Source: Trypanosoma brucei (taxonomy: Eukaryota). Taken from it: 64,000 nucleotides of DNA. Below the pieces are notes generated by a model, which worked only from the letters and a program-made list of their open reading frames with translations, made no database searches and was not told the DNA's origin. The DNA lies in assembly GCA_000002445.1 (NCBI GenBank), contig CP000069.1, positions 224,001 through 288,000 on the forward strand, read 5' to 3'. The translations under genes were made by a program, and so were the position numbers. The stretch's first letter is position 1, and each line of letters begins with the position of its first letter. This document shows, one piece after another, positions 1,450 through 42,095 of the stretch.

Positions 1450-1740
1450 GATGTGAGGTGCAGTCAGCCTTTGTTGTCATTGGGGTTAAGCGGAAAGGTG
1501 TGTGTCAGTAGGTTGTGAGGTGAAAGCGTTTTCAGATGCATAGTGAGCTTAATGTCCTTTTCACAGTATATCGTGTCTGATAGGTATCTCTTATTAGTAT
1601 AGTCGAATACTAGTCAATAGTGCATTTTGTGCAAAATGTCCATTTTGTGGCAGTGATGGGGTTGCTTTATGCTATTCCGTGTCTCTGGGTGGGCGTGCAT
1701 TGAAAATAGGGGTTATCGGGTGAGTACTGAGTTTAACATG
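1450..1740 (+). promoter_or_regulatory. Procyclin (GPEET/EP3/PAG3 unit) promoter region, RNA polymerase I type in T. brucei; boundaries approximate
   Basis: Lies immediately upstream of the first procyclin gene's polypyrimidine tract and AG acceptor (approx 1771..1805). Procyclin promoters are known to occupy ~250 bp upstream of a start site ~100 nt 5' of the splice acceptor. Position is inferred; no promoter motif was verified. Confidence 0.45.
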
Positions 1741-1780
1741 TTCTCGTGATCGCTGCACGCGCCTTCGAGTTTTTTTTCCT

Positions 1781-1922
1781 TTTCCCCATTTTTTTCAACT
1801 TGAAGACTTCAATTACACCAAAAAGTAAAATTCACAATGGCACCTCGTTCCCTTTATCTGCTCGCTATTCTTCTGTTCAGCGCGAACGTCTTCGCTGGCG
1901 TGGGATTTGCCGCAGCCGCTGA
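1781..1922 (+). repeat. Duplicated 5' flank, copy 1: polypyrimidine tract, AG trans-splice acceptor, 5'UTR and first ~28 codons (signal peptide); copy 2 at 3059..3200
   Basis: 56 nt before the ATG (tttccccatttttttcaacttgaagacttcaattacaccaaaaagtaaaattcaca) are identical upstream of both procyclin genes. Coding identity continues through [26 protein letters not shown]. Confidence 0.85.
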
Positions 1923-2181
1923 TGAGTCGGCTAGCAACGTTATCGTGAAGGGAGGCAAAGGAAAGGAGAGGGAGGACGGCCCTGAGGAGCCGGAAGAAAC
2001 CGGACCAGAAGAGACCGGACCAGAAGAAACCGGACCAGAAGAGACGGGGCCGGAGGAGACGGGGCCGGAAGAGACGGGACCAGAGGAAACTGAACCTGAA
2101 CCTGAACCTGGTGCTGCAACGCTGAAATCTGTTGCACTTCCGATTGCAGTCGCGGCTGCTGCTCTCGTTGCCGCATTCTAA
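1837..2181 (+). CDS. GPEET: GPEET procyclin (major early procyclic surface glycoprotein), 114 aa
   Basis: ATG verified at 1837. N-terminal signal peptide, KGGKGK motif, 6x GPEET pentapeptide repeats plus EPEPEP, and C-terminal hydrophobic GPI-attachment signal ([23 protein letters not shown]). This architecture is unique to T. brucei-group GPEET procyclin. Confidence 0.95.
1978..2109 (+). repeat. Acidic repeat array GPEEPEET-(GPEET)x6-EPEPEP encoded by 15-nt units with synonymous wobble variation
   Basis: Tandem variants of gagac(c/g)gg(a/g)cc(a/g)ga(a/g) are visible at 2002..2091. Confidence 0.9.
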
Positions 2182-2384
2182 GCGGATGCAAGCGTGTGAA
2201 GCGCCTCGGAGGAACGAAACCCCTTTGAAAAGGTGGCTTTCGTTTATATATTCTCCATCTGGTGCATCGTGTTTATTTCGTATTATTCCCTGTCAAAAGC
2301 TGCGGATATTCATTTAATATTCTTTTCGTTATATTTTTTTAGTTCTATCCTTTATTTTATCCGTTTTAATCGTCTTCTGAGACC

Positions 2385-2406
2385 CACAGCCCTGTAGATT
2401 TCTGTG
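2385..2406 (+). promoter_or_regulatory. 3'UTR stem-loop (stem CACAG/CUGUG, loop CCCUGUAGAUUU); probably the conserved procyclin 16-mer translational element
   Basis: Inverted repeat read in the sequence. The same loop sits in a compensatory stem in the EP3 3'UTR (3708..3733). Identification as the 16-mer is from memory of the literature, not verified. Confidence 0.6.
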
Positions 2407-2602
2407 ATGTTTCGGTTGCGTATTCCATAATTTTAAGCGTTTCACTTCTATTTTTTTTCATTCCTTTGAATTTGGATCTTAAAATTATTATTGGTGCCTT
2501 GTGTTATTGTGCGTGCTGCGTGTGAATTTGGTGCTCTGCCTTTTAATTTGTTGGATGAGCTATTTCATTAATTTTTTTGCCTTCTCTTCTTTTGGGTTCG
2601 AA

Positions 2603-2647
2603 TAATAGTTCCTTCTAAACCTTCAGGCCAGAAATGGGAAACAAGTG
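2603..2647 (+). promoter_or_regulatory. Conserved ~45-nt intergenic block (aatagttccttctaaaccttcaggccagaaatgggaaacaagtg), copy 1; copy 2 at 3936..3980
   Basis: ~88% identical block found ~420 nt downstream of the stop codons of both GPEET and EP3, although the surrounding downstream sequence is otherwise diverged. Confidence 0.5.
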
Positions 2648-3058
2648 TTAGACCGGCCAACTTGGGCGAAGGGGTCTGCATGTTGCTTTATTTCATTGGT
2701 GGTTTTATGTGCAGTGTTTCCCTGCTTCAGATGGGCCCCGCAGCTGAAGTTGTTTCGCTGCCCTGCCCCCCACTGCTGCGTTGCTGCTGGAGAAACGATG
2801 TTGGAGGTTGACGGGTGTGTGCTTTTGAAGACTTTGTATGAATATGGAAGGAAGCTCGCAGCGGTTACTACAGGCAGTTAAGGGCTGAGTGCTGTGCCTT
2901 TTCTATTGCCTCTCCCCCTCTTGAGCTATTCTTGTCGGGAGAGTGATTTATATATCCGAGTTTCGGTTAATTGTCCCTTAGGGATGAAAGGCACCTCAGA
3001 GATGAGAGGGCAATGCAACGCTGGTTATCCCAGTTGATGTGCGCATTCATATATACCA

Positions 3059-3200
3059 TTTCCCCATTTTTTTCAACTTGAAGACTTCAATTACACCAAA
3101 AAGTAAAATTCACAATGGCACCTCGTTCCCTTTATCTGCTCGCTGTTCTTCTGTTCAGCGCGAACCTCTTCGCTGGCGTGGGATTTGCCGCAGCCGCTGA
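3059..3200 (+). repeat. Duplicated 5' flank, copy 2 (polypyrimidine tract, splice acceptor, 5'UTR, signal-peptide codons)
   Basis: See 1781..1922. Confidence 0.85.
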
Positions 3201-3504
3201 AGGACCAGAAGACAAGGGTCTTACTAAGGGAGGCAAAGGCAAAGGCGGGAAGGGAACCAAGGTCAGCGACGACGATACCAATGGCACTGACCCTGAACCC
3301 GAACCTGAACCTGAACCTGAACCTGAACCCGAGCCAGAGCCAGAACCTGAACCGGAACCCGAACCCGAACCTGAACCTGAACCTGAACCCGAACCTGAAC
3401 CCGAGCCAGAGCCAGAACCAGAACCTGAACCTGGTGCTGCAACGCTGAAGTCTGTTGCACTTCCGTTTGCAATCGCGGCCGTTGGTCTCGTTGCCGCATT
3501 CTAA
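3115..3504 (+). CDS. EP3: EP procyclin (EP3-type, with N-glycosylation sequon NGT before the EP repeat), 129 aa
   Basis: ATG verified at 3115. Signal peptide almost identical to [15 protein letters not shown] motif, DDDTNGTD, ~23 EP dipeptide repeats, and C-terminal GPI signal. A tandem GPEET-EP arrangement is characteristic of the chromosome-6 procyclin locus. Confidence 0.93.
3292..3432 (+). repeat. EP dipeptide repeat array (6-nt gaacc(t/c/g/a) units, ~23 copies)
   Basis: Direct reading of cctgaa/cccgaa/ccagag units. Confidence 0.9.
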
Positions 3505-3707
3505 GCTCATGTAAAGAGAAATCTTTTTGGAGGGTCAAAACTTTTTAACAAGGGTGACCCCAACTGTTTATTTAACCCTTCCTTTGGCGCGATGCGCTCG
3601 CTTCATGGCGTTCCTTTGTGACAGGACACTGACACGCATAATATTTTTTTCAACCCATTTTTTTGAGTTCTATTTTTTGTTTTATGTCTTGGAACCGTCG
3701 GCGGTAG

Positions 3708-3733
3708 CACGCAGCCCTGTAGACTTCTGCGTG
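3708..3733 (+). promoter_or_regulatory. 3'UTR stem-loop (stem CACGCAG/CUGCGUG, loop CCCUGUAGACUU), counterpart of 2385..2406
   Basis: The stem is 7 bp here versus 5 bp in GPEET. Base changes (A/U to G/C) are compensatory while the loop sequence is conserved, which is direct evidence for a selected RNA structure. Confidence 0.6.
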
Positions 3734-3935
3734 TGCCTGTCAATGTGTTCCTTGGCTCTTTTCAAACGGCTTCTTTTATCTTACCGTTCATATGGTTTTG
3801 TCAAAAATTCATTCACTGCATTTGTGGTCCTCTCCTATGTCTCGTTCCTGCAATGGTTGACAGCAACCTCTTCCATTTGTGACTGAACTTTTTTTTTTTC
3901 AAACTTTTTGCCTTGTCCTTTTTTCGTACTGGGAA

Positions 3936-3980
3936 AATAGTTCCTTCTAAAACCTCAGGCTAGAAATGGGAGACAAATGG
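3936..3980 (+). promoter_or_regulatory. Conserved ~45-nt intergenic block, copy 2
   Basis: See 2603..2647. Confidence 0.5.
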
Positions 3981-5295
3981 ACTTTTGTTGACTCAAGCGA
4001 TTTGTCCCTCGATATTTCCGCCATCGCAGCTTCCGTTTGACACCGTGGAGTTGCAACATGGGAAGCAGCGGTTGAAGGAAGCACATTCCTGGTGATGATT
4101 CCTTCCTCGCCTACGGTGGTGCATCATCATGTTTGTTAATATGTCGGGGAAACTTTAAAGCACCTTGAGGGAGTTCACCGTAACTGTTCAAAATTGAGGC
4201 CTGAGTGGTGTTTTGCCTTTTGACTTGCCTTTATTTAACTGTTCTCGTCAGGGGAGCGATTCAGTTGAGTGAGCTGCTGCCACTTTATCTGTTGGGGAGG
4301 AGAGGCTGTGGAGAGGGTAAGCGCGTTGTTTCCATGAACTTTACGTATTTACTGCACTGCCCTCTGTTTTGGTCCACTTTGTGAAATACTCTGGGACAAT
4401 CAATGGAGAGTGTGAGATTTTTTGAAATACTTCTGGAGCATTCACCGGCTCGTCGGTCGTCATATGTTCTCGCAGTGTTTTCTCTCCCATATTCTTCGGG
4501 GCGGTATTGCAGTGAAAGTGCCATGCGGGACGCGTGTCAGAGCAGTGTTTGATGTTCCGGAAGTCTTCGGAGTTAGAGGGCAAATGCTCCTCTTCTCCTT
4601 TCGTGCGGCTTGATTCTCATACCGAGGCTTCCACTAAGCAGGCTGCAACTCTTCTGCTGACTTTTTGGTTTATTCTTTTCCCATATTTCAGTGTTGGAGT
4701 GTTTCTCTTGCCGCCCTTGGGAATCGGGCACAGTCATATGAAGGCGCTTGCTTCGGCAGCCAAAGGTGGTTCCGTTTGGTATTTCTTGTGGAGACATTTG
4801 TCTTCCTTTCCTTTTCGGCCACCTCTTTTCCCATGGAGAAAGGCCTCTGGTACTGTCCTGCCCGATGATCTTTGCCCCGTTCGTTCCATCATGAATAATA
4901 GTTACAAAAGTGTGTGTCGGTACGGCGGTGGATATTTCCCCAATCGCTTTGGTTGCTTTTACTATTTTGCGGGGCGGTTTAAAGTTGGTAACTCAGTGCA
5001 CTTCCAAAAAAATTGCGACTCGTACATTTGGTTTTATATGGAGGGTGGAAGAGCCGAAAACGTGTATGTGCTTGCTTGGATGAGTCGGAAAATAAATTCT
5101 AGTTTCCGTGTATTTTCCGTTCATTACGTCATATATGGCTTGGCCTTTAGATTTGTGTAAGGTATGTTTCTTTTCGAAGTTGGTATGCTGGCGGACGTGT
5201 TTGTTTAATGTAAATCAGCCAAGGTGTAAGAGTAGCTGTAATGATAAGTTTCTGCTTCTCCCTTTTTTACTGATGAATGTAGAAACAAAATCACA

Positions 5296-6660
5296 ATGAT
5301 GCACGAATTAGTGTTTATCATTGGGTTGTTTGTGGCTGTTTTATCTGTTTCTTCTCAGAGCGATTTGTCGAGACACAATTGGAGCATAATATCTAGAAAC
5401 CGGAGTGTGTTTACAAAACTCGTTAGTGAGCTCAACAACCACCACAGCATTGGTGAATTCGAGGCACTTTGCAAGATTTACAGAATCACACAAGCGGAGA
5501 CACCGAAGTCTTCCTTTAAGAATCGTGAGAAGGAAGCTGAGATTCTGAAGAAGTTGGAGGAGATGGTCAGTGAAACTGAGGCTGTGGGTGGTGATAAAGG
5601 TTCAAGTAAGTTGGGTAAAAGAACGACGGCATATCAGGAGATAAAGATACTTCTTGAGAAGGCGAAAAAGCTGAAGGAAGAAATAGAAGTAAATAGGACA
5701 AGATCGCTAAATGCAAGTCGTTCTGCTGAGGAAAATATGTTGAGAGCTGTGTATGGCGACGCTGTGGATGTGGCGAGAAATGAAAATAAAACTCTGGAGG
5801 AAGCCATGAGAGGAAACAAATCACTACTGTTCAACAGTGTTGATCATGCAAATATGAGTTGTGGTTCTTACGGAGACAAACTGGTTGGAAAGACACTGAT
5901 CAATGACTTTTTCTGCCTATGTGTGGGAGAGGCTATAGATGTACAAATAAGAAGCAATATGTTTTCGGGACTCGAGTTAAGCTCGAATTACCACCCTGTG
6001 TATAATGGGTTTAACTGTCCCTGCAAGGATGAAATAAGGAGACCCCAAAATGGAAGTTGGACTATGATGGCTGATTATTGCCCAAGCAACTATAATACTT
6101 GCGACCCTAGAAAGGTAAAATACAACCATACTGAGGCATGGGATGTGATTAGTAAAGCTTGCGTGTACAAAAATGTTGCATCGAATGTGAAAACTCTGAA
6201 GAGTGCACTAGCTCAGTTTGATGCGTTGGTGAATTTAGAGCAGGATAATTATCAAATGAAGGGTATTCTTGGGTACGCGGATATTTCAGAAAACACAAAT
6301 CGCACATGCAACGGTCATACTGCTGGATTCACGTGTGTCAGTTACAATTACACACTTGAAAATGGTGGAATTCCATGGTACAACCGCCTCACTAACGCCA
6401 CCAAGGAACTACAAGAAATGGCGAAGTATGCCAAAGAGGCTGACAGTCATCTTCATGAATTGGAAGAGTACCAACATGAGGCAGAGGAAATATATCTTGA
6501 AGTGAAACTTGGTGGTGATGCAGAGCTATGGAAGAGTAGCCGAGGTAAGGGTTACAGTGGAGGTGATGATACTGATGTAAATAATGATGGGCTCAACTAT
6601 ATAAATATTACAACTGACTTTCTTATATTATTGTTTTCATCTTTTATTTGTATATCTTAG
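5296..6660 (+). CDS. PAG3: Procyclin-associated gene 3 (PAG3): secreted/GPI-anchored glycoprotein, 454 aa
   Basis: ATG verified at 5296. N-terminal signal peptide (MMHELVFIIGLFVAVLSVSSQ), at least 13 N-x-S/T sequons, a Cys-rich central region, and a C-terminal hydrophobic tail (TTDFLILLFSSFICIS) typical of a GPI signal. Its position as third gene of the GPEET/EP3 unit matches PAG3; my recollection is that PAG3 was described as ESAG2-related. Confidence 0.8.
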   Translation: MMHELVFIIGLFVAVLSVSSQSDLSRHNWSIISRNRSVFTKLVSELNNHHSIGEFEALCKIYRITQAETPKSSFKNREKEAEILKKLEEMVSETEAVGGDKGSSKLGKRTTAYQEIKILLEKAKKLKEEIEVNRTRSLNASRSAEENMLRAVYGDAVDVARNENKTLEEAMRGNKSLLFNSVDHANMSCGSYGDKLVGKTLINDFFCLCVGEAIDVQIRSNMFSGLELSSNYHPVYNGFNCPCKDEIRRPQNGSWTMMADYCPSNYNTCDPRKVKYNHTEAWDVISKACVYKNVASNVKTLKSALAQFDALVNLEQDNYQMKGILGYADISENTNRTCNGHTAGFTCVSYNYTLENGGIPWYNRLTNATKELQEMAKYAKEADSHLHELEEYQHEAEEIYLEVKLGGDAELWKSSRGKGYSGGDDTDVNNDGLNYINITTDFLILLFSSFICIS

Positions 6661-7234
6661 TTTGTGATTAATTTGGTAATTGCTTTGTGTGGTGTCGCTT
6701 TTTTTTTTTCTTTGTGGAGGGGAGGAGGAGGGATGTTGTATTTGTGTGCAGTTGTTTTCAAATTAATTATAAATTTGGTAACAAAAATTTCTGCAAATGT
6801 TGCTTTTGACTGTGTTTGAGCGTGGCTGTTGGGACGTTGACGGGGAATCGCCACGGCAGGGTCATTTCCCGAGAGGGTGCCGATACGTTGTGTTACTTTT
6901 TCATTTTCACATCGCGCAAGGATATGGGTATGCTACTATTAACAAATCATTTAGCTCCTATCTAGTACGCTCCGCTGCGGCAGAAAAATAAGGGGCCACG
7001 AGCCAAATTCTATGTGTCTACGAGCACTGTCAGCCTTCCAAGGACTCTCGGATCTCTATCGCAGCGAGTTTAGGTTAAAAGTGGGGTGAAGAACTCCTCC
7101 TTCTGCTTGTTCCGACCGAACATAGAGGCGTGACGGCAGCTCCTTCGTTTCCATCCACGGAGGACACAACATTCGCTGAATTATCTCTTAATGGAGCGTT
7201 TTTTTGTTTTTAAGTGTAAAATAACTGTTTGGTG

Positions 7235-7261
7235 TATATATATATATATATATATATATAT
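7235..7261. repeat. (TA)13 microsatellite
   Basis: Direct reading. Confidence 0.95.
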
Positions 7262-8636
7262 TGACTGAAAGAAGGAGTCGAGAGCGTCTTTTCCGAGTGC
7301 ACTTTTCTCCGGCGGATCTCCCACTAACCTGTGCCGTAGGGCTATGGCTCCCAAAACACGTGTAAACACTACTGTATGATGTGGGTTATCGTGTTCATTG
7401 GCGTGGTAGTACTCTTTAATCCAGCGTATTCCATGTTTGATGTCATTGTGTATTTAGAAGCCCACTTTGGAGTAGATCCTTATCCCGGCCTCGGAGGGGA
7501 TACTGCACACAGTTGCAACGCGTTGACGATGGAGCTCTGGGGCGCTGTTGGTTAGGTTTTCAAGTTTTGGAGTGACCCAATCTGTGTATTTTCTAGAGCT
7601 GAACCGTTAAGCTGCTGAGGGATGCATATTTATGCGGTCACTGTTAACTTCAAATGAGTTGTTCATCTGCTGAAGCCGTTTCCCCGGACGGTGGCTCTTT
7701 ATCTCCCTATGTGTTATCCTGGCTTCACTTTGTAAGGCCACTGCCTTCACTAGGTTTGTTTTCCTGGTGTCTGACCCTTTTCTGTGGAGGTATCCCGCCT
7801 TTCAATTTGCTTGCGATGTTGCATTCCCTGAACTGTGGCGGATTTGATTCTGTAGCCTTTTCCGTTGGGAGAGCCAAGCTCTCAGTCATTCTCCAACCCT
7901 GTGTTTCACCACTTGTTTTTACTTTGTTTTTATACCTTCGTTTGATTCTGTAATTTTCGTTGCGCGTTTAGTCTGCGCCTACTCCGCTCTCACTGTTTAT
8001 CTTCAGTTACTTGCTCACAGAAAGTCTGAGCAGATTCGTGGCAGCTTGTTCCCACTTTACGCATTTATCGACGGGCAAATTCTCGTTACCCTGCGAAGGT
8101 GCTCTGGGACTTGGTAAGTAATCAGCTTCTTTTGCTGGCACAACATTTCGGTTTGTTTCAGTAGCTTGGTGACGAGACGTTTTATCACCATCTGGGTTTT
8201 ACTGTTTCTCGCCTGTGTCTACGTGGCCGTTGTTTTGTGGCTTAACCGTCCCTCTGGACTGAATGTTTGAAGCTATATTCATGAAGAACTGCGCGAGTTC
8301 CACGTATTGGTTCCTTCCTTTTCTGTTCCACTGCGCTCATCAACCCCATTCCTTCTCATCCTTGGTGTCCTCGAGTTTTTGGAGGAAGTGCCTGATCGTC
8401 TCTCGGTATTCTGTTCTTCCGTTGTTGCGAACCTCCCTTCACTTCCCTTCCCGACTGTGCACTATTTTTTGTTTTTGCACCACGTAAGTCTGGCTTGTCT
8501 GAGGAGTTTCAAATATTACCCTGAACGCCGCCTGCTTTCCGTTGTTATGTTCCACCTCTTTGTGCCTCCATCCGTAGTTGTTCCTGGGGCGATGACAATT
8601 CCAGGATCGTGCTACCGTGTGTGCGTTAGATTACCG

Positions 8637-8872
8637 CCCCCTGCATCAAGTAGGACATACTGAATCCGCGAAGGCTCTCCGGCTTTCGTGAGGTGTTTCT
8701 AGCAACTATCACCTTTGTTTCTTCAACTTCTTGATTTATTGTCTTTTACTCATCTATTATCTCCCTTTTCTTCAGGTCCTGCATGTTAAAAAGTATACTG
8801 TCATATTGGGCGGGAAATCATATCATAACTGTGGTATGGTTTTGAGGGTTGCAGTCTTTTACCGTGCTGGTG
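8637..8872. repeat. 236-bp direct repeat, copy B
   Basis: See copy A at 1..236. Confidence 0.85.
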
Positions 8873-9376
8873 GCGGCTTTGCCGTCAGAATTCTTGCCGC
8901 ATACTTTGAGGTTGTATGTGCTATTCATGAATTTACGATATTCTTTTGCTATATCTTCTGAGCCAGCAGCGGCTTTGCCCGACGGAGCACAACAGCAGTC
9001 ATTTTCATTCAGCCTTTCCGCAACTGCCCTCCTCGCATATCATACTCACCGTCCACACAACATAACTTCCAATTTTATTGAAAAAGAAATTACACAACAG
9101 ATCTTGCTTGACATTTCCCCCCATATGCTGTGTCGTGTTTTACTTGGTCCTTAACCTCTGCCGCATCATTTTCTTTCTGCATCTATGTCTGACGTGCCTT
9201 TCTGCCATGCAAATGTTCAGTCATGCTCCGCGCTTACATTGCTCGTCGACCTTCGCCATGTCGCCATGTCAGCGTTGTATGCTCCTCGGTCTCCTATTTG
9301 AAACTTTGTGATATCCATCGCTGCCTCTTGTTTCGTCGGAAGTCAGGGATATATTTCACGTTCCTTCACCGCCTTG

Positions 9377-11225
9377 TCAGACCACGCAAGCACGTCCTGT
9401 ATGTTGCTCCTGAAGGTTGACCACGCCCTCTTTGGTAAGCCCCACCGTATTTCTCATTGCTTCGATGGTTATTTTGTAGTAATTTGTTCCCGTATCATCT
9501 CTCTGCCTCCCGTATGGGTCGTCACAAAATCCCTTCCGCATTTGGATGTTAGCGTGTTCGGCGGCGTATTCCTCTGACCTGACATTTTCCCCCGCTGTCT
9601 CCTCAATTTCCACACCTCTACGGTTGCACGCCCTTACATCCTTTGATCGTCTCCACTGAACTTCCCATAATTTTTTCCCCGCTTCTAGGATGTCTTCATG
9701 GCCTCCCGGCGTTTGGACTCAACGTATTGGCGAGGTTGCGGATGCTTACGACAAGTTTCATGGCAGTGGTGGAACCGAAAAACGCTACCTTTGCTGCTTG
9801 CCGTATTTTCGCGTTCCACGCCCCTGGTATCCTTGTCGTCCGCGGTCCTTTCCCCCGCGCCCTCGGCCGTTGTGGCCCCTTCTTTATTATATGGATGAAG
9901 TTTGGAGGTATGAGACTTTGGCGACACCGACGTTGGGTATGCTTTGGTAGGGCAAGGGCAAATTATGGTCTCTCTTCTTTGCTCCTCCGCCGTTTTAGCG
10001 TTCCTTTTTTCCACCCTCTCCACGGAAACTATTTTCATCGCTTTCTTCCGGTCTCGTGGCCCTGTCCTTGCACCCTTGACGGCGGGTTTCTACGCGTCGT
10101 TTTAGCTGGTGTTTCAGAAACTCAGTATTCGTGCGCAAGAGGCACCTTCGTGCATTTCCTTCTCCCAGTCTTATCCCTTCATCGCCATATTCACTGCTTC
10201 CCGCTGGAGTGTCGCATTTTCCACCACTTCCCAATGGCAGGGTCAAATCTTTCTTCCTATAGTGATAGAGGCAAATGTGTCACTTATACCAGTTTGTAAC
10301 TGGTTGTTCTTTGGTCCTTGTGAGCATTTCCTTGCACTCTCCCAGATTATTCCTAGGCTTCTTCGCCTCGTTTTGTTCATCGCTTCTGGTTTGAACCTCC
10401 CTCATGTCTGTTCGTATGTTTTTTAAAGTTTGTCACATTTCCGGGGAGTGCCCCGCTCACACAAAACACATTGATAGCATCCGTGGCGCACACGAGGGAT
10501 TTCACAGCATCTTTTAAAGCCTTCCCATGCGTCTGCCACTTCTGCCCACTCGTGTCCCTCAACTATGTCACTCATGGTTGATCCTTATCAGTGGACGATA
10601 AAGTTACATTCTGTGCCCATCACTGGATCGCGAACTCTCTCTGCCTTAGCCTCGGGGGCTATCAATAGCGTGCTTAATTCGTTGGCAAGCGCTTCGTTGT
10701 ATTGTTTCTCCTTTTCAACGCCTTCAATTTGGTATTTACACAATCGACATTTGCTGAAACACTTATCAGGGAGGGAGGCTGTTCCACAGGTCTCGCCAAG
10801 TTGTTCCGGGGGTGCGAATATGAAATTGTTAAAGGGCGAGATTTCTTTTATTCCGGCATGCGATCGCTTCTTTAGTAGAGACTCGATGTGACCGAGAAAG
10901 TTTCTCCTGCACGTGTTTGTCCCAATCCCAGCTTCGAGCGCAGCATATCCCTCGTTACGCTTCTGCTTTATGTCTCCCACCAAAACATCAATTTTACATA
11001 TTAGGTGTGTCATTCTGCAGTTGTTTCTTCCACTGCAATCTCATCTGTTATTGCACTGTCTTTCCAAACAACGTGGTGGAAGAAAATAAGCTGCATAGAA
11101 ATCACCTCATTCTTTTTACTGACCGTGAAAATCACCCTTCCATACGCGGCTCGGGATTCCATCATCCGCGCGACTCGGTCTTTCATTGTTTCCAGTAGCG
11201 TATTTAGCACCTTTTCAATTGGCAC
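9377..11225 (-). pseudogene. Probable decayed gene: six abutting minus-strand ORF fragments in shifting frames (11225-11010, 11013-10588, 10562-10377, 10246-9995, 10038-9685, 9613-9377); identity unknown
   Basis: The ORF track shows near-continuous minus-strand coverage over ~1.85 kb with frame changes at the fragment junctions. Composition is less biased than the flanking spacer. One fragment carries a CFSKCRLC (C-x3-C-x2-C) motif. There is no intact ORF. Confidence 0.3.
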
Positions 11226-14071
11226 CGGTTCTGCACGATGACTGCATCCTAATATTCAGATGTCCCTTTAATCCTGTACTTTTCCATGTTGCCGAAGATT
11301 ATCGTTTCTGCAGTGGACTAACTGCCTAAACTCACCAGTTCATTTGTTGAAACTTTTCAGTCCGTCTTATTGAATATCCCTATTCTTTGCGGCGCATGAG
11401 CCTTCCTCCATTCGTCTTTTGCCTTTGCTTTTATACCCACCCGCGTATGGCAAATTTGTGTGCACTCTGGAGCCAATGTCCAAGGAGCTTTAAGTATGGA
11501 GTACACCTTGATTTTTGGTGTCGGAGCACCATCCCTCCACTGAATTCAGCCATTCAGGTATTGGATGACTTCTAGGATATTGCCGGTTTATTATGTCTGA
11601 AAAGCATCCTCTTATAGCGTTTGACATGGGGCGGTATTCCGTCGCCCTCTTGTTTGCCACTTTTCAAACAAATATCACTCGAGCTTATTTGGGCACACCT
11701 TGTTTTTGCGTGCTACGAAATCTCGGAAATCGTATGCGTTGTTTGGGGCTGTGTGCTTTCCACCCTCTCCCCGCTTGAAGTGTTGACGGAGAATCACTTA
11801 AAAGGAATGCCGTAGTTCATCTTTGCATGGATAAGTCCAGAGTGGAAGGCTGCAAACGGTTCCGTCTGGGGAGCCCTGTTCGGCTAGCACTACGGCATTG
11901 AGCGTCCGTAATCTTGTCCTTCCTAATCTTGTCGTTTGTTAAGCGTGCTTCGACGTTTTTTTTTCTTTTTGACGGAGGGCAAACGATGATGTTTTCTCAA
12001 GATCGCACTTCAATGACAGCATACTCTTTAAGGGTGGCTTGGCTGCATCATCAACCGGACGAAAGATCATTCGAGGAAGCGTGCGGTGAAACGAACGCTC
12101 GTTGTTACGGGATGGTGACGCGAAATTTGGCGGATATGCCGCGTGTTGGAAGAGAGAACAAAAGGCGCAGAGATTTGTGAATTACTGTGCCTCACCGTTC
12201 AGCCTGTCAACAACAGATGGGGGCACGTTTTGGCAGCGTCCACAAAGCCCAGGCTGGAGGTTGTTGAACGCGAGAGCGGCACCCCCGCCGTCGAGGGGCT
12301 GAAGACAAGACGTTATGTGAGCATTTTATCTCGGACCAGTGAAAGCGTAGGTGTGCCACAGGATGGGGTCCACTTTGTTCTCCACCACCTCGTGCAGAGG
12401 AAATATGTTGAAGGTGCGGAGTCAAGCGATCAACATCGTGCCGTCGGTGCTGAAATAGTGAAAAAGGGAGAACAACATGCTGAAGGAGGCGCGGCACACA
12501 ACCGGATGATGGAGCTCAACGGCGGATTTGTTTGGGCGATATCACCGGCAAAGTGTGCCCCCGAGGACTACGCGTCTGTTTGGGGTTAGCTACTATAAAG
12601 GATCAACGCCGCCTCATGGGTGAATGGGGCGCTGCAGTGCACAGGGTACCCCCGCCGCGGCTGGGAGAAAAGTTCCGAATGCAAGCCTCTCCGCCCGGTG
12701 ACGAATACAGCTGAACACGACATGGGGCATGGGGCAAAGGTGAATATGGTTGAATACTTGATAGTGGGGGTTGCGCAGGCGAGGGCGTATAAAAATCAGG
12801 TGCGCAAAGAGGCTGGTCAAAACGCCTGGCACTTTCAGGAATCATGGAAAAAAAAGCATGAGGATCATGAACGGTGGAAGCGGACAATATGAGCACGGGA
12901 AAATGGGGCGAGGGGAGGGTTGACAACAGGGAACAATACCCTTGCTGCCCCACAAAACGTATTGCGGGACGGCGTCTCGCAGAAGGGGGAAATATCCATC
13001 CACTGCGCAACTGACTCGGCAAGTCGCTCAAACACTGTAAAACACTGCCCCAATCGAGGCGACCACGTCTCGGCAGGAGGATGACCACTATTCCATTTCT
13101 TCCACATCAAGAGGTTCCTCCACATGTTAGCCACGTCCACGTGTGTGTGCGTATTTGTAAACCCCAGAAGTCCAGTCCACATAATAGCGGGCCCGAGTTC
13201 ATGCCCAAACCCTCTCGGAAACTTACGTTGTACAGCATGCGCTAATGCCGGTATCCATGACGGGCCCCGCCGCAGCTGCCGTGTGGGATGCTAAAAGTGT
13301 AAGAGGCACTAAAAAGCGACCCATTCGTTTGTTGTTGTTTTTTTCTGTTTTCTTTTCAAATCTTTGTGTCGTGAAATTATACGCGTATCCGAAGAGGCTC
13401 CCAACATCCTTATCCCTTCCCCGAGGGCGTGCATCGCTCAGAAGCACTAAAGCAAGTACCACTTCTCCTACGGGCAGCACCTGGTCTGATTGTTGGAGAA
13501 AACCCACACCAACAGTTGTGGGGGTGGTTGTGTGTATTTGGCCGCGTTCGGATGCCCCGGAACATCTCTGCGTTAAGTTTCTTCACCGGAAAGCGGCCAC
13601 CAGATTCATAAAATGCTCCCACCCGAGCGGCCACAATATCGGGAAGAGAGGCATCACGCCGGTGTGATGCGTATTAGAAGAGGGAAGCTGCAACACTTTT
13701 GTGGCTTCAGATTAAAAAAAAAAAGCGGGGGAGAATGGCAGCACCTACTGGAAACCTGCGGTAGAGGGAGCAAAACAACAACAAGAGGGGAATATGGCGG
13801 CAGTGCGGGCAAAGGGATCCCGCGCACCGGCAGCCGTTTATTTCTCTCCTTTACTTTCAGATATTCAGTAGCAAAGTTGCAGCGAAAGTGAAAGTTCTAC
13901 GGGTACTCGTGGGCGCTGCGATACGCATTTCGTACAAAAAGAAGTTTTCTCCCCTCTAGCATCTTCATCGCTATCCTGGGGTTAAACTAAAACGCATCTG
14001 TTGGAATAAAATTAGATTGAAAAAAACACACGCATAAATGTTCACGACTCTTAGGTTTAACGATGTGCAAC

Positions 14072-15094
14072 CTACGCCGTGTTGGGTGCAAGAGGAATGC
14101 CAGCAGAACCGCCATCCTCGATGCCGCATTCGCTACTTCCGCGGCGGATGAGAAAGTAACCGTCCATTCCCCACTCGGTGTTCCAGCTGTTGGCAATCTT
14201 CCAGTACGGCACTCCGTTTGATGTGCCCCACCCAACGAGCCTCACCGCATGTCCTCCGAGATATTGTCCTGAAACGTGGTGGTAGACGCCGCTGTTGTAG
14301 GCGATGAAGTCTTCGTAGACATCAAACGCCACCTCAAATGGACCGCGGAAGAACAACTCACGCATGTAGTCATCCTCTCCTTGAAGCGCATAGCTCGTCC
14401 AGGAACGGTAGTTGACAACGGGGATTGTCGGGTCATCGCACGTGTAATTGCACTTGGGCGTGTCAAAGTTGAACTGAGAACAGGGAGGGTACCCATTTTT
14501 GCTTTTGCTGTGGTGTGAGCAATGGGGAAATGGGTAGGGTTGGCAGTAGTCCGAAACGAGGCCTGTTGAGCTAAAGTACGCCCACGCCCTATCCGGATCG
14601 CCACCATTACAGCCATCGCCACAATCACTGCAGCACGCAAGCAAGTCACCTGCTGAGATATGGACGTCCTGCACACCCCCCATCGTACAAAATCGGTCGG
14701 ACATGGCTGAGGCCGCAGCGACTGCCCAGCAGGAGCCACAGGCGGACTGATCTGCAATTTGTGGGATGGTGGGGCAGTTGGGCCAAGCTTCAGCGGAATC
14801 GAAGCTGCTGGGAAGCGGGGCACGTGCCTCTTCCTCGGTGAATCGCCTCTTCGGAAGGATGCTGGCGTTATTATTCTTTTTAATAACACCGTTGAGCCGC
14901 TTCGCCTCGCGCAATGTTATGTTTTGCATGACGCCATCGTACTTCGCCTTCCAAATCCCGCGGTTGAGGCGGTTCACGCGGTCGACGAAAGCCTTGGAGA
15001 GGACGGGCGCGTCTTCAGCAACGAGGGCGGCGTTTACGGCGACTACAGCCGTCGAAGCGATACAAAATGTGATGCAGGCACGCATGAGATGCAT
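14072..15094 (-). CDS. CatB: Cathepsin B-like cysteine peptidase (papain family C1), 340 aa
   Basis: ATG verified at 15094. Signal peptide; active-site Cys motif CGSCWAVAAASAMSDRFC; occluding-loop region; His motif GGHAVRLVGWG; Asn motif YWKIANSWNTEWGMDGYF. Fits the Tb927.6.560 position. Confidence 0.93.
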   Translation of the reverse strand: MHLMRACITFCIASTAVVAVNAALVAEDAPVLSKAFVDRVNRLNRGIWKAKYDGVMQNITLREAKRLNGVIKKNNNASILPKRRFTEEEARAPLPSSFDSAEAWPNCPTIPQIADQSACGSCWAVAAASAMSDRFCTMGGVQDVHISAGDLLACCSDCGDGCNGGDPDRAWAYFSSTGLVSDYCQPYPFPHCSHHSKSKNGYPPCSQFNFDTPKCNYTCDDPTIPVVNYRSWTSYALQGEDDYMRELFFRGPFEVAFDVYEDFIAYNSGVYHHVSGQYLGGHAVRLVGWGTSNGVPYWKIANSWNTEWGMDGYFLIRRGSSECGIEDGGSAGIPLAPNTA

Positions 15095-15438
15095 GTGTCA
15101 CCGGATTTGTACGGGTCTGCAAGTTCGATGTTGTCGTTGCCCCTCTGTGGAGCTGTCGTATACACTTTTTTTTTCTCCCTTAAAAAGAAAAAAACAGAAA
15201 GGAAAATCACTTGTTTTGCCCCCGGGTTGCTCAGATTAAACAGTGGAGGGGTTGGGTGGAGAGGGAATGGGGAGAGGATGTGAAGGAAGATAGGGGGAAT
15301 CATGCGGGTAAATAGCCTCCAATACTCAGTTTCGTCCATGAAAACCTGCGTTCGTATCTAATAAGGAGGAAATGTGGTGAGAGGAGGGGTGATGCGTTCC
15401 AGAGCGCACCCAGCGCTCAATGCGAGGTCAGTGGAGCT

Positions 15439-15804
15439 TCATGTCCAAAGACACCTTTCATTTACTTTACATTTTTGCAAGTCAACCCTCTCTAGTAAAC
15501 TTTCCGGGAACCCGCCCTCGTCAACAATGCCATCTCGCAACTTGATGTAGTATGGCCAACGCAAACCCTCAATCATTACGCGGTAAGTAGCCGCATCGTC
15601 GGCGTCCCCCCTTCCGTTTTGATTTGGTGCACGCGTGATGTCGGCATTAATGTAAACGGCAGATTCCGGTGCAGCGTTCGTTGGGCGGGAGAAAACGAAA
15701 CGGTACACGCCTGGTGTGGACGGGTGCTCGGAGGCTGTGAATGTGTAGCGCATCCCTTGTTCGTCGAATGCCGCTGCAAGGCGTTGCAGCTCGTTCAGTT
15801 CCAT
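15439..15804 (-). CDS. Hypothetical protein, 121 aa (MELNELQRLAAAFDEQGMRY...)
   Basis: The ORF is open to 15981, but the upstream 59 codons read through a polypyrimidine tract (PPPPPP). The first ATG after the tract, verified at 15804, is taken as the start. Confidence 0.55.
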   Translation of the reverse strand: MELNELQRLAAAFDEQGMRYTFTASEHPSTPGVYRFVFSRPTNAAPESAVYINADITRAPNQNGRGDADDAATYRVMIEGLRWPYYIKLRDGIVDEGGFPESLLERVDLQKCKVNERCLWT

Positions 15805-16266
15805 GCTACCGTCGCAGTTACAGTAGTAGTTGCTGTTGTCGCCGTCAAGGCTACGCGTTGTGGGATATAAACAAAGCAATTCACGAGGAGGAGGAGGAGG
15901 GGGAGAGAGAGAGTGTGTGTGTGTGTAGAGATAATGTAAAAGGATTGATAGATTCAAGTTTATCAGTTCGACAAGGGGCAAAAGTTTAAGGAAAAGGGAT
16001 CATTGCTTGTTCCGCTGTACCGACAGCGTGGATCGCGCGCTCAGTGTGAGATGAAGGGAAACCAGGAGCAGGCTCGGTAGATGATTTTCCTGAGTGCCAT
16101 ACGCAGGAGACGAGTACGAGCTTCACTACTTTACCAACACTGGGAACACTTATAGCTCACTTTTTCATCTGTTGGCTCTACGGCAGAAGTTTACCACTCG
16201 ACAGATGCATCCACTGTACACACGCCCCCCACTCTTGGTTATGGAACCGTTCGTGGCGGTGAGTCA

Positions 16267-18057
16267 TCAAAGCACATCTTCACTCAGCAAATTGGCCAAA
16301 GCATTTGCTCCCGTGGCCTCACAATACTCCTTGAGGTGCTTTCGCTTCTCTTTTGGTATGAGGCACGGTATCGAAGTTCTCATGACCTCTTGCACGATGT
16401 TGCTTCCGGTGGAGGGGCCGTGCAGAAGTCCCTGCAAAATGCCATCCCACGCATGTAGACCCCGTGGCGACACCTCTTCTACAGCAAAGAGATGCGCAAG
16501 AAACTGTGATGTGCTTTCGGTTACCTCCCGCCTCAGTTTTTCACGCCAGCGTGTCATTTTCCCGAGTTGAGCGGCGGAGACGTCTTTCTCCCCACAATGT
16601 TCGCAAAAACGCTCACGCCACTCCTCCGCTGCAGAGCAGACGGCTTGTACCGAATCTAGCAAGTGAAATGATGTTATAATCAACTCGGCGCGCGTTTCAC
16701 ACAGCGACGCTGCCTCTTCCTTGGCATCTTCGAGGTGTTGCATGAACATAACTAAAGATGGAACCACAACGGAATTCCATGTGATAATCACGCAGGCTGG
16801 AAGGAGGGCAAAAACGACGGCCAACCGACGCAAGATGGCCTCAAGACACCGAAGCATATGATACGTCCCCCGAACTGCCTTTAGCGTTGCAGTTTGATCC
16901 GTGAGCGTCGGTGAGTTTGTAAGAAACTCGAGTCGCCACAGCACCTGATGCCCTGACGCAAAGGCTTTGCAAACAAATGAACGTGCGGCTTCCGCGTAGG
17001 TGCAAAAAATATCCGGGGAGATCAACCGCTCTACAATGCCCGCTTGCGCACCAAGGTGTACAATTCCACCAGATTTGGTTAGAAAGTCTACAAGACAATT
17101 TACACCGTGAATTGTAAAATCCTTCACCGAAAGGTAACCAGACTCCTCGTGCCATCCATAGGCGCTGCGGAAGACTGACACGGCCGTTGCCGCAAGGGCT
17201 GCGCTTCCAAGCGCAATTAATGTGTTGACGCCATCTTGTTCCCCAATCCCTTCGGGGGCCCACCCGTGCGCACGGGCGTTGTTAACCAGGCGTGTGTAGA
17301 TCTGCTGGAGAAACAAGAAAAAGTGCTGTGGCTCCTCCCTCCGTGCTGTGTTCTTTCCTTCTTGAAAGTGGTAAACCAACTCCTTCTCTAGTGGTTCAAC
17401 CTCTTTCTGTATAAAGGGAAGCAATATGTCATAAAGTTCAACTTTCCACCCACACCGCTTTAACCACGCAATTCGGTCGCTCCCGTCAAAACCCGAAAGG
17501 TGAAGATGTAACAGTAACGACACGGCACGGGCGTAAAAGCCCCTATAGAAACTAAGCGGCATCAGTGCATCCTTCTCCACTTCACTACCATCAGTGTCAG
17601 CCGTTGAAGTCAAAACATTAAACAATGGCCCCAGGGCTTGCACAGTTTGGCTGGCGCTTTCCTTCAGCCCCACCTGTCGACGCCCCGCCATGAGTGATCG
17701 CAGAAAGTTGCTCAATTCACTTTCCACCGCCGTCCATTTCACAGCACCGGGACCGCTATCCATCGCAAGGTTCAGCAGCCGAGTCACTTCTGAGGCGTGA
17801 GGGGTGTTTTCTCGCCGCTCGAAGCGCTGCTGCTGCTGCTGCTGCTGCAACTCTTGTTGGCTACACAGTTGCTTATGTTGCTCTTGGCATTCCTGGCCGG
17901 GATCCCGCACATGATCGGAGAGTTCCTTCAGAATTCCCGGTAGGCAGTCGACCATGCGAGTACTTCTGTCTTCAGTGAGTTTAAGCATAAGTTCCTCCAA
18001 AAGTGCATTGTCCAACTGCGTGAATGAGTTAACGACACCCGACACGAGTTTTATCAT
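16267..18057 (-). CDS. Hypothetical protein, 596 aa, predicted largely alpha-helical; poly-Q stretch near the N-terminus
   Basis: Long intact ORF, ATG verified at 18057, with a polypyrimidine tract (minus strand) upstream at ~18360..18430. I recognise no family. Confidence 0.75.
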   Translation of the reverse strand: MIKLVSGVVNSFTQLDNALLEELMLKLTEDRSTRMVDCLPGILKELSDHVRDPGQECQEQHKQLCSQQELQQQQQQQRFERRENTPHASEVTRLLNLAMDSGPGAVKWTAVESELSNFLRSLMAGRRQVGLKESASQTVQALGPLFNVLTSTADTDGSEVEKDALMPLSFYRGFYARAVSLLLHLHLSGFDGSDRIAWLKRCGWKVELYDILLPFIQKEVEPLEKELVYHFQEGKNTARREEPQHFFLFLQQIYTRLVNNARAHGWAPEGIGEQDGVNTLIALGSAALAATAVSVFRSAYGWHEESGYLSVKDFTIHGVNCLVDFLTKSGGIVHLGAQAGIVERLISPDIFCTYAEAARSFVCKAFASGHQVLWRLEFLTNSPTLTDQTATLKAVRGTYHMLRCLEAILRRLAVVFALLPACVIITWNSVVVPSLVMFMQHLEDAKEEAASLCETRAELIITSFHLLDSVQAVCSAAEEWRERFCEHCGEKDVSAAQLGKMTRWREKLRREVTESTSQFLAHLFAVEEVSPRGLHAWDGILQGLLHGPSTGSNIVQEVMRTSIPCLIPKEKRKHLKEYCEATGANALANLLSEDVL

Positions 18058-38765: not shown

Positions 38766-38798
<33 letters not shown>

Positions 38799-42031: not shown

Positions 42032-42033
<2 letters not shown>

Positions 42034-42072
<39 letters not shown>

Positions 42073-42095
42073 GTATATATGCATGTATATGTGTG
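42034..42095. repeat. Compound (CA)14(TA)n microsatellite
   Basis: Direct reading. Confidence 0.95.

What the first reader, a model, noticed from the sequence alone, without database searches (positions are those of the whole stretch)
6661..14071. 7.4-kb convergent strand-switch zone without intact genes: likely overlap of Pol I read-through and the terminating Pol II unit
Between the PAG3 stop (plus strand) and the CatB stop (minus strand) there is no credible intact ORF, in contrast to the dense minus-strand array that follows. The procyclin Pol I unit is reported to extend several kb past PAG3 and to overlap an antisense Pol II unit, so this region is a candidate for sense/antisense transcript overlap and dsRNA formation. 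It contains a (TA)13 tract, repeat copy B, a decayed ORF chain, and a GC-richer block (11.9-13.9 kb) with short ORFs on both strands that might hide small genuine genes. The expected locus numbering leaves room for two annotated genes here.
Basis: partly seen in the sequence, partly recalled or inferred. Interest (0 to 1): 0.55.

Follow-up and report, generated by a model that had tools for sequence, protein, structure and literature searches.

The report
Known procyclin-locus transcription termination spacer

Summary
The window is T. brucei TREU927 chromosome 6, 224,001-288,000. The coordinates, the (TA)13.5 tract, repeat copy B, the GC-richer block and the listed ORFs are all real.

Three labels are wrong:
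- The ORF ending at 6660 is GRESAG2 (Tb927.6.540), not PAG3. PAG3 is 4552-5160.
- Only one annotated gene lies inside the region, not two: Tb927.6.550, a 185-aa orphan at 9742-10296(+).
- The three short ORFs proposed for ribosome profiling start at TTG or GTG, which are not trypanosome start codons.

I found no coding signal in any of the six frames. There are no Pfam domains and no homologues outside Trypanozoon. Codon-usage scores are weak and no more than marginally above the off-frame background. ORF lengths are about what the A-poor composition predicts.

Repeat copy B is the right end of the published EP3/PAG3/GRESAG2 triplication.

The biology is published:
- A Pol I terminator lies 2-3 kb past GRESAG2.1.
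- Pol I reads through only when TbMex67 is perturbed.
- Small RNAs at this convergence (CTU21) are few, come from both strands and depend on DCL2.
- Loss of AGO1 has only minor effects on PAG mRNA levels.

Verdict: already known, low interest. One small unexplained feature is a 4.5-kb pyrimidine-rich tract that ends sharply at 11,970.

The parts
4552..5160 (+).
   Evidence: Chromosome coordinates 228552-229160 in the supplement of PMC9241505, with a window offset of 224000 fixed by GPEET2 and EP3-2. Haenni 2009 describes a PAG3 major ORF of about 720 nt.
5296..6660 (+). GRESAG2 / GRESAG2.1 (Tb927.6.540), last gene of the Pol I procyclin unit and the true left border of the finding
   Evidence: Exact match to XP_845177.1 'GRESAG2, putative'. 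Pfam VSG_B, E = 3.7e-24. Chromosome coordinates 229296-230660.
6661..8871 (+). 3' flank of GRESAG2 that belongs to the tandemly triplicated EP3/PAG3/GRESAG2 unit of strain TREU927
   Evidence: The last 234 nt are repeated at window 1-234, with a sharp boundary at 234/8871. Copy A ends 2201 nt after the stop of Tb927.6.500 (GRESAG2); copy B ends 2211 nt after the stop of Tb927.6.540 (coordinates). The triplication is described in PMC4288722.
7235..7261 (.). (TA)13.5 microsatellite
   Evidence: Tandem Repeats Finder: 13.5 copies, 100% matches. Similar TA tracts occur throughout the window.
8638..8871 (+). 'Repeat copy B': the right end of the tandem repeat unit
   Evidence: 99% identical to window 1-234 by blastn. 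Two mismatches; similarity ends abruptly after ...GTGCTGGT.
8872..11970 (+). Unique pyrimidine-rich spacer. It should contain the Pol I terminator elements mapped 2-3 kb downstream of GRESAG2.1 (about 8.7-9.7 kb; position inferred, not tested)
   Evidence: Pyrimidine fraction on the + strand is 0.605. Together with 7501-8871 it forms the most strand-asymmetric stretch of 3 kb or more in the 64-kb window. Terminator position from PMC2731899, citing Berberof 1996. No Pfam, Rfam or tRNA hit.
9742..10299 (+). Tb927.6.550, annotated 'hypothetical protein / T. brucei spp.-specific protein', 185 aa. Most likely a chance ORF
   Evidence: Exact match to XP_845178.1. Its only homologue is its own Trypanozoon cluster. 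Codon-usage score about 0.0, against 0.134 (sd 0.065) for real genes. Against a 97%-identical strain, 7 nonsynonymous and 4 synonymous codon changes.
11956..11970 (.). T9CT5 tract that marks the compositional switch point between the two converging units
   Evidence: The cumulative pyrimidine excess on the + strand peaks at 11970. The Logan contig L002, which runs from CPC downstream, ends at 11957 in an A14 run; whether this is a poly(A) tail is ambiguous.
11971..14071 (-). 3' flank of CPC on the minus strand. It is the GC-richer, purine-rich (+ strand) block holding the flagged short ORFs; no gene is supported
   Evidence: Pyrimidine fraction (+ strand) is 0.41 at 11971-13000. The stretch 12119-12586(+) has no real homologue among 1.84 billion representatives. 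Against T. equiperdum it shows 4 of 4 nonsynonymous substitutions plus an in-frame 3-nt deletion, and another strain's ORF has a different N-terminus consistent with a frameshift. 12868-13182(-) is annotated 'hypothetical protein, unlikely' in T. b. gambiense.
14072..15094 (-). CPC / TbCatB (Tb927.6.560), last gene of the converging Pol II array and the right border
   Evidence: Pfam Peptidase_C1, E = 6.7e-59. Exact match to XP_845179.1, cysteine peptidase C.

Best explanation
The region is the non-coding termination and convergence spacer of the chromosome 6 GPEET/EP3/PAG3/GRESAG2 procyclin locus of T. brucei TREU927.

RNA polymerase I starts at the procyclin promoter, transcribes GPEET2, EP3-2, PAG3 and GRESAG2, and continues past the GRESAG2 stop at 6660. 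It first crosses the 2.2-kb tail of the triplicated repeat unit (to 8871). It is then stopped in the unique pyrimidine-rich spacer, by the terminator elements mapped 2-3 kb beyond GRESAG2.1 and by a TbMex67-dependent chromatin barrier.

From the other side, the Pol II array ends with CPC (stop codon at 14072-14074). Its downstream flank runs to about 11.97 kb, where base composition flips strand.

Overlap of the two transcription activities in wild-type cells is small. It is enough to give a few DCL2-dependent small RNAs from both strands, but it has no detected regulatory effect.

The ORFs in the region, including the annotated Tb927.6.550, are chance products of skewed composition.

Shown here: gene identities and coordinates, the repeat structure, the absence of coding signal, and the compositional switch. 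Taken from the literature: terminator position, polymerase behaviour and small RNAs. Inferred: that the terminator elements sit at about 8.7-9.7 kb of this window, and that 11.97 kb is the functional meeting point.
For: Identity of locus and genes.

Triplication and repeat boundary.

No coding signal:
- Six-frame Pfam scan empty.
- Rfam and tRNA scans empty.
- In the codon-usage scan only about 8 of roughly 300 window-frames exceed the 99th percentile of off-frame scores, against about 3 expected.
- ORF lengths are close to the shuffle expectation.
- Tb927.6.550 has no homologue outside its Trypanozoon cluster and shows 7 nonsynonymous to 4 synonymous changes.
- The 12119-12586 stretch has no homologue and only nonsynonymous changes.

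Composition switch at 11970.

The region is more polymorphic than the adjacent gene array.

Literature:
- Four-gene unit, and terminator 2-3 kb past GRESAG2.1.
- Only one termination region had been documented, downstream of GPEET/PAG3.
- Pol I read-through on chromosomes 6 and 10 seen with TbMex67 RNAi plus the dominant-negative form, reaching the opposite Pol II start site, with no RNAi response.
- CTU21 small RNAs.
- AGO1 loss has only minor effects on PAG mRNAs.
Against: - I could not read Berberof 1996, so the terminator position in window coordinates is inferred from one sentence in a later paper. That work also used another strain, with a single-copy locus.
- No transcription data were available to me for this exact region. 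The claim of limited overlap rests on the low CTU21 read count and on text describing supplementary figures I could not see.
- I assumed that v4 and v5.1 chromosome coordinates coincide when equating CTU21 with this region. Gene order supports this.
- Tb927.6.550 keeps an intact 185-codon ORF in five Trypanozoon sequences, and its transcript is measurable and changes in CSD1 RNAi cells.
- A few frames have codon scores in the range of real genes: 0.13 at 12200(+), and 0.15 at 13250(-).
- Two homology searches with concatenated queries failed their built-in positive controls.
Confidence: 0.8

Rival explanations
1. In wild-type cells Pol I read-through and the terminating Pol II unit overlap substantially across the zone. 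The resulting double-stranded RNA and siRNAs regulate the flanking genes.
For: Small RNAs from both strands, DCL2-dependent, occur at this convergence (CTU21). Overlapping sense and antisense transcription is documented for the sister loci on chromosome X. Assembled contigs from sequencing runs of unknown type cover 8136-11290 and 11957-15291.
Against: CTU21 has one of the lowest small-RNA counts (27 normalised reads, against up to 4888 elsewhere). A terminator was mapped well before CPC. Loss of AGO1 causes only minor changes in PAG mRNAs. Even forced 100-kb read-through (measured on chromosome 10, the same phenomenon being reported for chromosome 6) does not trigger RNAi. DCL2 loss did not change mRNA levels at the two other CTUs tested. 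There is no inverted repeat in the region that could act as a hairpin source.
Confidence: 0.2
2. The region hides at least one genuine T. brucei-specific protein-coding gene: Tb927.6.550, or a small ORF in the GC-richer block.
For: Tb927.6.550 is annotated and intact at 185 aa in T. b. brucei, T. b. gambiense and T. b. equiperdum. Its transcript appears in RNA-seq tables. The longest stop-free run is at the edge of the shuffle distribution (P = 0.05-0.09). Codon scores reach 0.13-0.15 at 12200(+) and 13250(-).
Against: No homologue outside Trypanozoon. No Pfam domain in any frame. The codon score of Tb927.6.550 is about 0. Its predicted protein looks rich in Phe, Leu, Cys and Arg by eye, as expected from a pyrimidine-rich strand (sequence; not quantified). 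Nonsynonymous to synonymous changes are 7:4. The flagged ORFs lack ATG starts. The frame of 12143-12589 differs between strains and all 4 substitutions are nonsynonymous. The gambiense annotators called the 105-aa ORF 'unlikely'.
Confidence: 0.08
3. Part of the zone, notably the GC-richer block at 11.97-13.9 kb, is the decayed relic of a gene lost at this break of synteny.
For: GC of 0.51-0.55 is like that of coding sequence. One + frame from 12119 to 12889 has only two stops and positive codon scores throughout (0.13, 0.04, 0.01, 0.05). Procyclin loci sit at a synteny break.
Against: No homologue was detected by a full HMMER search or by Pfam. The number of open stretches is only mildly above the shuffle expectation (P = 0.02 for the + strand, 0.23 for the minus strand). 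The scores are within multiple-testing noise.
Confidence: 0.12

Closest known systems
Transcription terminator region of the procyclin PARP A (GPEET/PAG3) unit, Berberof et al. 1996, Mol Cell Biol 16:914
   Same: Same locus. The gene order is the same, ending with GRESAG2.1. Termination is reported 2-3 kb downstream of that gene, which falls at about 8.7-9.7 kb of the window, just past the repeat boundary at 8871.
   Different: That work used a strain with a single-copy locus, whereas TREU927 has three units. I could not read the paper, so the three elements cannot be placed on this sequence. No motif is known for them.
[quoted passage not shown] 2001; Haenni et al. 2009)
   Same: A Pol I procyclin unit converging on a Pol II unit. 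PAG-type genes at the convergence. Very low mRNA levels for the distal genes of the unit. Transcripts with only small ORFs beyond the last gene ('T region').
   Different: On chromosome X, mature transcripts overlap GU2 by 700 nt and antisense signal extends into the PAGs. No such overlap is documented for chromosome VI. Within 6661-14071 blastn finds no similarity to any other part of the window, including the PAG3 region, except the 234-nt repeat.
Convergent transcription units as siRNA loci (Tschudi et al. 2012), CTU21
   Same: The interval Tb927_06 232,200-240,800 equals window 8,200-16,800. Small RNAs come from both strands and depend on DCL2.
   Different: Among the weakest of the CTUs tabulated (8th lowest of 48). 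No effect on mRNA levels was shown at the two other CTUs tested.
TbMex67-dependent boundary for Pol I at procyclin loci (PMC10250216, 2023)
   Same: The same region of chromosome 6 is reported to be where Pol I read-through starts when the barrier is lost. Histone H3 is depleted along the read-through.
   Different: That work defines a protein requirement, not a DNA element. The sequence features I describe (pyrimidine tract, switch at 11,970) are not mentioned in the parts of the text I read.

Membership tests
Convergent strand-switch region / transcription termination zone of T. brucei | The flanking genes point towards each other | tested here: met
   GRESAG2 at 5296-6660(+) and CPC at 14072-15094(-). 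All large ORFs from 14 to 64 kb are on the minus strand.
Convergent strand-switch region / transcription termination zone of T. brucei | Enrichment of H3.V, H4.V and base J | not testable with these tools
   Only indirect: Haenni 2009 states that all annotated PAGs lie in H3V-enriched regions, as a personal communication.
Convergent strand-switch region / transcription termination zone of T. brucei | DCL2-dependent small RNAs from both strands | not testable with these tools
   Published table: CTU21 has 100 top-strand and 87 bottom-strand reads in wild type, falling to 3.8% of the normalised wild-type level in dcl2-/-. I matched the coordinates through.
[quoted passage not shown] | Located 2-3 kb downstream of GRESAG2.1 | tested here: inconclusive
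   The interval 8.7-9.7 kb lies inside the finding, in the pyrimidine-rich spacer just past the repeat end at 8871.
[quoted passage not shown] | Blocks Pol I-driven reporter expression when placed between promoter and reporter | not testable with these tools
   Needs transfection assays.
Overlapping sense/antisense transcription units (Liniger 2001) | Transcripts from both strands covering the same DNA | not testable with these tools
   Documented for chromosome X only. Contigs L002, L007 and L009 from unnamed sequencing runs cover parts of the region, but their strand and molecule type are unknown.
PAG-associated strand-switch regions (Haenni 2009) | PAG-related sequence at the switch | tested here: met
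   PAG3 itself lies at 4552-5160, 1.5 kb before the zone. Inside 6661-14071 blastn finds no similarity to other parts of the window except the 234-nt repeat, and tblastn with the PAG3 ORF finds nothing significant.
Protein-coding gene (Tb927.6.550 and the flagged short ORFs) | ATG-initiated ORF longer than composition predicts | tested here: inconclusive
   Tb927.6.550 has an ATG and 185 codons inside a 238-codon open run; shuffle P = 0.05-0.09. The three flagged ORFs start at TTG or GTG.
Protein-coding gene (Tb927.6.550 and the flagged short ORFs) | Codon usage like the neighbouring genes | tested here: not met
   Tb927.6.550 frame scores -0.04 to 0.00, against an in-frame mean of 0.134 (5th percentile 0.018). 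Isolated windows at 12200(+) and 13250(-) reach 0.13-0.15.
Protein-coding gene (Tb927.6.550 and the flagged short ORFs) | Homologues or known domains | tested here: not met
   Six-frame Pfam scan empty. P0003 hits only its own cluster. 12119-12586 hits only a 95%-identical Trypanozoon ORF and a chance repeat motif in a bacterial surface protein.
Protein-coding gene (Tb927.6.550 and the flagged short ORFs) | Purifying selection | tested here: inconclusive
   Tb927.6.550: 7 nonsynonymous and 4 synonymous codon changes. 12143-12589: 4 nonsynonymous, 0 synonymous, plus an indel. The numbers are too small to be decisive, but there is no sign of constraint.

The most novel reading that the evidence does not exclude
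The 4.5-kb strand-asymmetric tract (7501-11970; 61% pyrimidine on the + strand; the most skewed stretch in 64 kb; ending sharply at 11,970) may itself be the DNA part of a two-way, polymerase-specific barrier.

Pol I moving rightwards would make U/C-rich RNA, whose hybrid with the template is weak and favours release. Pol II entering from the CPC side would make A/G-rich RNA, whose purine-RNA:pyrimidine-DNA hybrid is unusually stable and favours R-loop stalling.

This would explain why this convergence yields so few small RNAs. It would also give a sequence basis for a terminator for which no motif has been found.
Probability: 0.1. Interest if true: 0.5.

Novelty: already known. Interest (0 to 1): 0.15.

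Why it matters
[quoted passage not shown] How that polymerase is stopped before it collides with neighbouring polymerase II units is still not understood at the sequence level. The zone is therefore of real biological interest, but it has been under study since 1996.

What this check adds is modest:
- corrected gene labels;
- the explanation of repeat copy B as the edge of the strain-specific triplication;
- evidence that the one annotated gene in the zone is probably not a gene;
- a precise compositional switch point, which could guide dissection of the terminator.

Tried and rejected
1. Whole-window repeat search. It was swamped by low-complexity A-rich, T-rich and TA families. A self-blastn gave the only real repeat.

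2. Minus-strand pseudogene. ORF fragments at 9380-9718, 10591-11040 and 11013-11255 looked protein-like, and I suspected a decayed VSG-, ESAG- or retroposon-type gene. The Pfam six-frame scan found nothing and codon scores are only 0.05-0.09. The idea is dropped as unsupported.

3. Homology searches with X-joined concatenated queries. They returned nothing, but they also missed exact members known to be in the collection (P0008, P0009). These negatives do not count.

4. A tblastn hit of GRESAG2 residues 217-295 to 8031-8234 (E = 0.001). The alignment is 25% identical, crosses a stop and is driven by W and C matches. Rejected as chance.

5. A hit of 12119-12586 to a 2309-aa protein (P0019, E = 2.4e-4). 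It is a short motif repeated in a bacterial-type surface protein. Rejected as chance.

6. Fetching TREU927 or other long contigs around GRESAG2 or Tb927.6.550. Nothing is on record, so only short contigs and one T. equiperdum contig were available. They are too close (97-99.8% identity) for strong evolutionary tests.

7. Whether the Logan contigs are transcripts. No spliced leader was seen. One A14 end falls at a genomic A-rich run. The run accessions are not mentioned in any held paper. Left open.

8. A general rule that the sense strand of non-coding DNA is pyrimidine-rich. It does not hold in this window: intergenic regions of the minus array average 0.50. The asymmetry of 7.5-11.97 kb is therefore a local feature and not proof of transcription direction.

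9. Berberof 1996 is not held. The supplement of Haenni 2009 is not held.

10. Internal repeats and inverted repeats in the region: only short chance matches.

Full report
**Where we are**

The window carries a GPEET pentapeptide repeat (1993-2090) and an EP dipeptide repeat (3287-3433). Exact protein look-ups place it on chromosome 6 of Trypanosoma brucei brucei TREU927. Gene coordinates printed in the supplement of PMC9241505 are GPEET2 225837-226181, EP3-2 227115-227504, PAG3 228552-229160 and GRESAG2 229296-230660. These fix the window as Tb927_06_v5.1:224,001-288,000. The finding therefore covers chromosome positions 230,661-238,071.

**Check of the observation**

The physical features are real:
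- The borders are the stop of a + strand ORF at 6660 and the stop of a Peptidase_C1 ORF on the minus strand at 14072.
- (TA)13.5 lies at 7235-7261.
- Repeat copy B (8638-8871) is 99% identical to window 1-234.
- The block at 12.0-14.0 kb has GC 0.51-0.55.

Three statements are wrong:
- The 454-aa ORF at 5296-6660 is not PAG3. [quoted passage not shown] PAG3 is the upstream ORF at 4552-5160. This agrees with the roughly 720-nt major ORF described by Haenni et al..
- The numbering therefore leaves one gene for the zone, not two. It is there: Tb927.6.550, at 9742-10296(+), 185 aa, 'hypothetical protein / T. brucei spp.-specific protein'.
- The three ORFs put forward for ribosome profiling start at TTG, GTG and GTG. 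Their ATG versions are 64 aa, about 27 aa and 80 aa.

**Is anything coding?**

I trained a codon log-likelihood score on eleven long minus-strand ORFs of the window. In leave-one-out tests it gives 0.134 (sd 0.065) in frame and -0.216 (sd 0.144) out of frame, with the 99th percentile of out-of-frame scores at 0.052.

Across 6661-14071 about 8 of roughly 300 window-frames exceed 0.05, where about 3 are expected. The frame of Tb927.6.550 scores -0.04 to 0.00. GRESAG2 scores 0.07-0.29.

Dinucleotide shuffles in 500-nt blocks reproduce most of the '+ strand ORF chain'. The + strand of 7500-11500 has 18% A, so stop codons are rare. The longest open run is 238 codons, against 168-179 (sd about 40) in shuffles (P = 0.05-0.09). 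There are 27 open runs of at least 70 codons, against 20.2 (sd 3.0) expected (P = 0.02).

Other results point the same way:
- All six frames, with stops masked, give no Pfam family at E <= 0.1, apart from a sub-threshold hydrophobic FixQ match.
- Rfam and tRNA scans are empty.
- Tb927.6.550 has no relative other than its own cluster of Trypanozoon sequences at 90% identity or more. Against a 97%-identical strain it shows 7 nonsynonymous and 4 synonymous codon changes.
- The best-scoring stretch of the GC-richer block, 12119-12586(+), was searched with full HMMER against 1.84 billion representatives. It found only a 95%-identical Trypanozoon ORF, whose N-terminus differs in a way consistent with a frameshift relative to strain 927, and a chance motif in a repetitive bacterial surface protein.
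- Against T. equiperdum the same stretch has four substitutions, all nonsynonymous, plus a 3-nt deletion.
- The 105-aa minus-strand ORF at 12868-13182 is annotated in T. b. gambiense as 'hypothetical protein, unlikely'.
- The zone is also more polymorphic than the adjacent gene array. It shows 1-9 differences per 250 nt against T. equiperdum between 11.25 and 13.5 kb. There are none across most of 13.5-19.5 kb, and the few differences there fall mainly in intergenic DNA.

I conclude that the zone is non-coding.

**What repeat copy B is**

Tb927.6.500, the preceding GRESAG2 copy, ends at chromosome position 222,033. Copy A of the repeat ends at window 234, which is 2201 nt after that stop. Copy B ends 2211 nt after the stop of Tb927.6.540. 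Similarity stops abruptly at 234/8871.

So 6661-8871 is the tail of the tandem unit, and 8872 is the first base of unique DNA after the array. The window happens to begin 234 nt before the end of the previous unit.

**Composition**

The + strand is pyrimidine-rich without interruption from about 7500 to 11970 (fraction 0.55-0.66 in 250-nt windows). It is then purine-rich to about 13000 (0.35-0.44). The cumulative excess peaks exactly at 11970, on a T9CT5 tract.

This is not a general property of non-coding DNA here. The intergenic regions of the minus-strand array average 0.50, and the tract from 7.5 to 12 kb is the most skewed stretch of 3 kb or more in the whole window.

A contig from a public run that starts upstream of CPC ends at 11957 in A14. 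The genome has A5GA10 at that point, so this could be a poly(A) site or merely an assembly break.

**What is known**

According to Haenni et al. 2009:
- The chromosome VI unit has four genes (GPEET, EP3, PAG3, GRESAG2.1).
- This was then the only termination region documented in trypanosomes.

In window coordinates that is about 8.7-9.7 kb. It starts at the end of the repeat unit and lies inside the pyrimidine tract. This placement is my inference, because the original paper was not available.

Overlapping sense and antisense transcription was shown for the chromosome X loci, not for this one. Loss of TbAGO1 causes only minor changes in PAG1-3 mRNA levels.

[quoted passage not shown] Tschudi et al. 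2012 surveyed 49 convergent transcription units for small RNAs. CTU21 (Tb927_06 232,200-240,800, which is window 8,200-16,800) gave 100 top-strand and 87 bottom-strand reads. This is 27.4 normalised reads, the 8th lowest of the 48 CTUs tabulated. The normalised count drops to 3.8% of wild type in dcl2-/- cells.

**Mechanism**

The best-supported picture is as follows:
- Pol I transcribes through GRESAG2 and the repeat tail. It is then halted in the unique spacer by DNA elements and a TbMex67-dependent chromatin barrier.
- The Pol II array ends after CPC.
- The two activities barely meet, probably around 11.97 kb. This produces a trickle of DCL2-dependent small RNAs with no known consequence.

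The gene identities, the repeat structure, the lack of coding signal and the compositional switch are shown here. The polymerase behaviour is taken from the literature. The position of the terminator on this sequence and the functional meaning of the switch point are inferred.

**Rivals**

- A genuine orphan gene is weakened by every coding test I could run, but it cannot be excluded without ribosome profiling.
- A decayed gene relic in the GC-richer block is suggested by one frame with only two stops and mildly positive scores over 770 nt. It has no homologue.

**Novelty and score**

The finding describes a known and repeatedly studied feature. The residual novelty is the sharply bounded 4.5-kb pyrimidine/purine asymmetric tract, which might contribute to polymerase-specific stalling. 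This is speculation at about 10% probability.

Overall interest is 0.15.

Noticed in passing
window 1-234 and 8638-8871; the whole of 235-8871: The window starts 234 nt before the end of the second unit of the TREU927-specific EP3/PAG3/GRESAG2 triplication. The last unit, the only one with GPEET, spans 235-8871 (8637 nt). The tail of each unit therefore sits directly upstream of the next procyclin promoter, so Pol I leaving one unit would run into the next promoter.
   Followed up: partly
window 7501-11970, switch at 11956-11970: The tract is 61% pyrimidine on the + strand (T 0.34-0.37 against A 0.17-0.19; C 0.24-0.27 against G 0.21-0.22). It is the most strand-asymmetric stretch of 3 kb or more in 64 kb and ends sharply on a T9CT5 tract. 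Intergenic regions of the neighbouring Pol II array show no such asymmetry (mean 0.50).
   Followed up: partly
L002 (window 15291-11957), L003-L006 (window about 15270-13800): Short contigs from runs ERR7929156-64 begin 21-197 nt upstream of the CPC start codon. Four of them end 135-270 nt after its stop, like mRNA-sized pieces. One continues 2.1 kb further and ends in A14 at the compositional switch point. The molecule type of these runs is unknown.
   Followed up: partly
L007/L009 against window 9000-9500, 10000-10250, 11000-11250: Divergence from another Trypanozoon strain is patchy. It reaches 19 mismatches plus 8 indel columns in one 250-nt bin, next to bins with 0-4 differences. This suggests haplotype mosaicism or local recombination in the spacer.
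   Followed up: no
cluster of Tb927.6.550 (P0003-P0007): T. b. equiperdum carries two 185-aa members of this cluster, with locus tags DPX39_060009700 and DPX39_040084300. The second tag suggests a copy assigned to chromosome 4. This could be a real duplication of the spacer or an assembly or haplotype placement artefact.
   Followed up: no
window 37575-43495 and 45701-49655: Two further long stretches (5.9 and 3.9 kb) inside the minus-strand array have no ORF of 200 aa or more. They are full of A-rich, T-rich and TA/CA low-complexity repeats. The stretch at 39-42 kb has the lowest + strand pyrimidine fraction in the window (0.42).
   Followed up: no
window 26035-34221 (-): A very large ORF of 2728 aa lies in the minus-strand array. 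It was not examined.
   Followed up: no
tool behaviour: the search for homologous proteins with long queries made of ORF pieces joined by X returned no hit, although exact 141-aa and 105-aa members are in the collection. A single-ORF query worked. Negative results from concatenated queries should not be trusted.
   Followed up: yes
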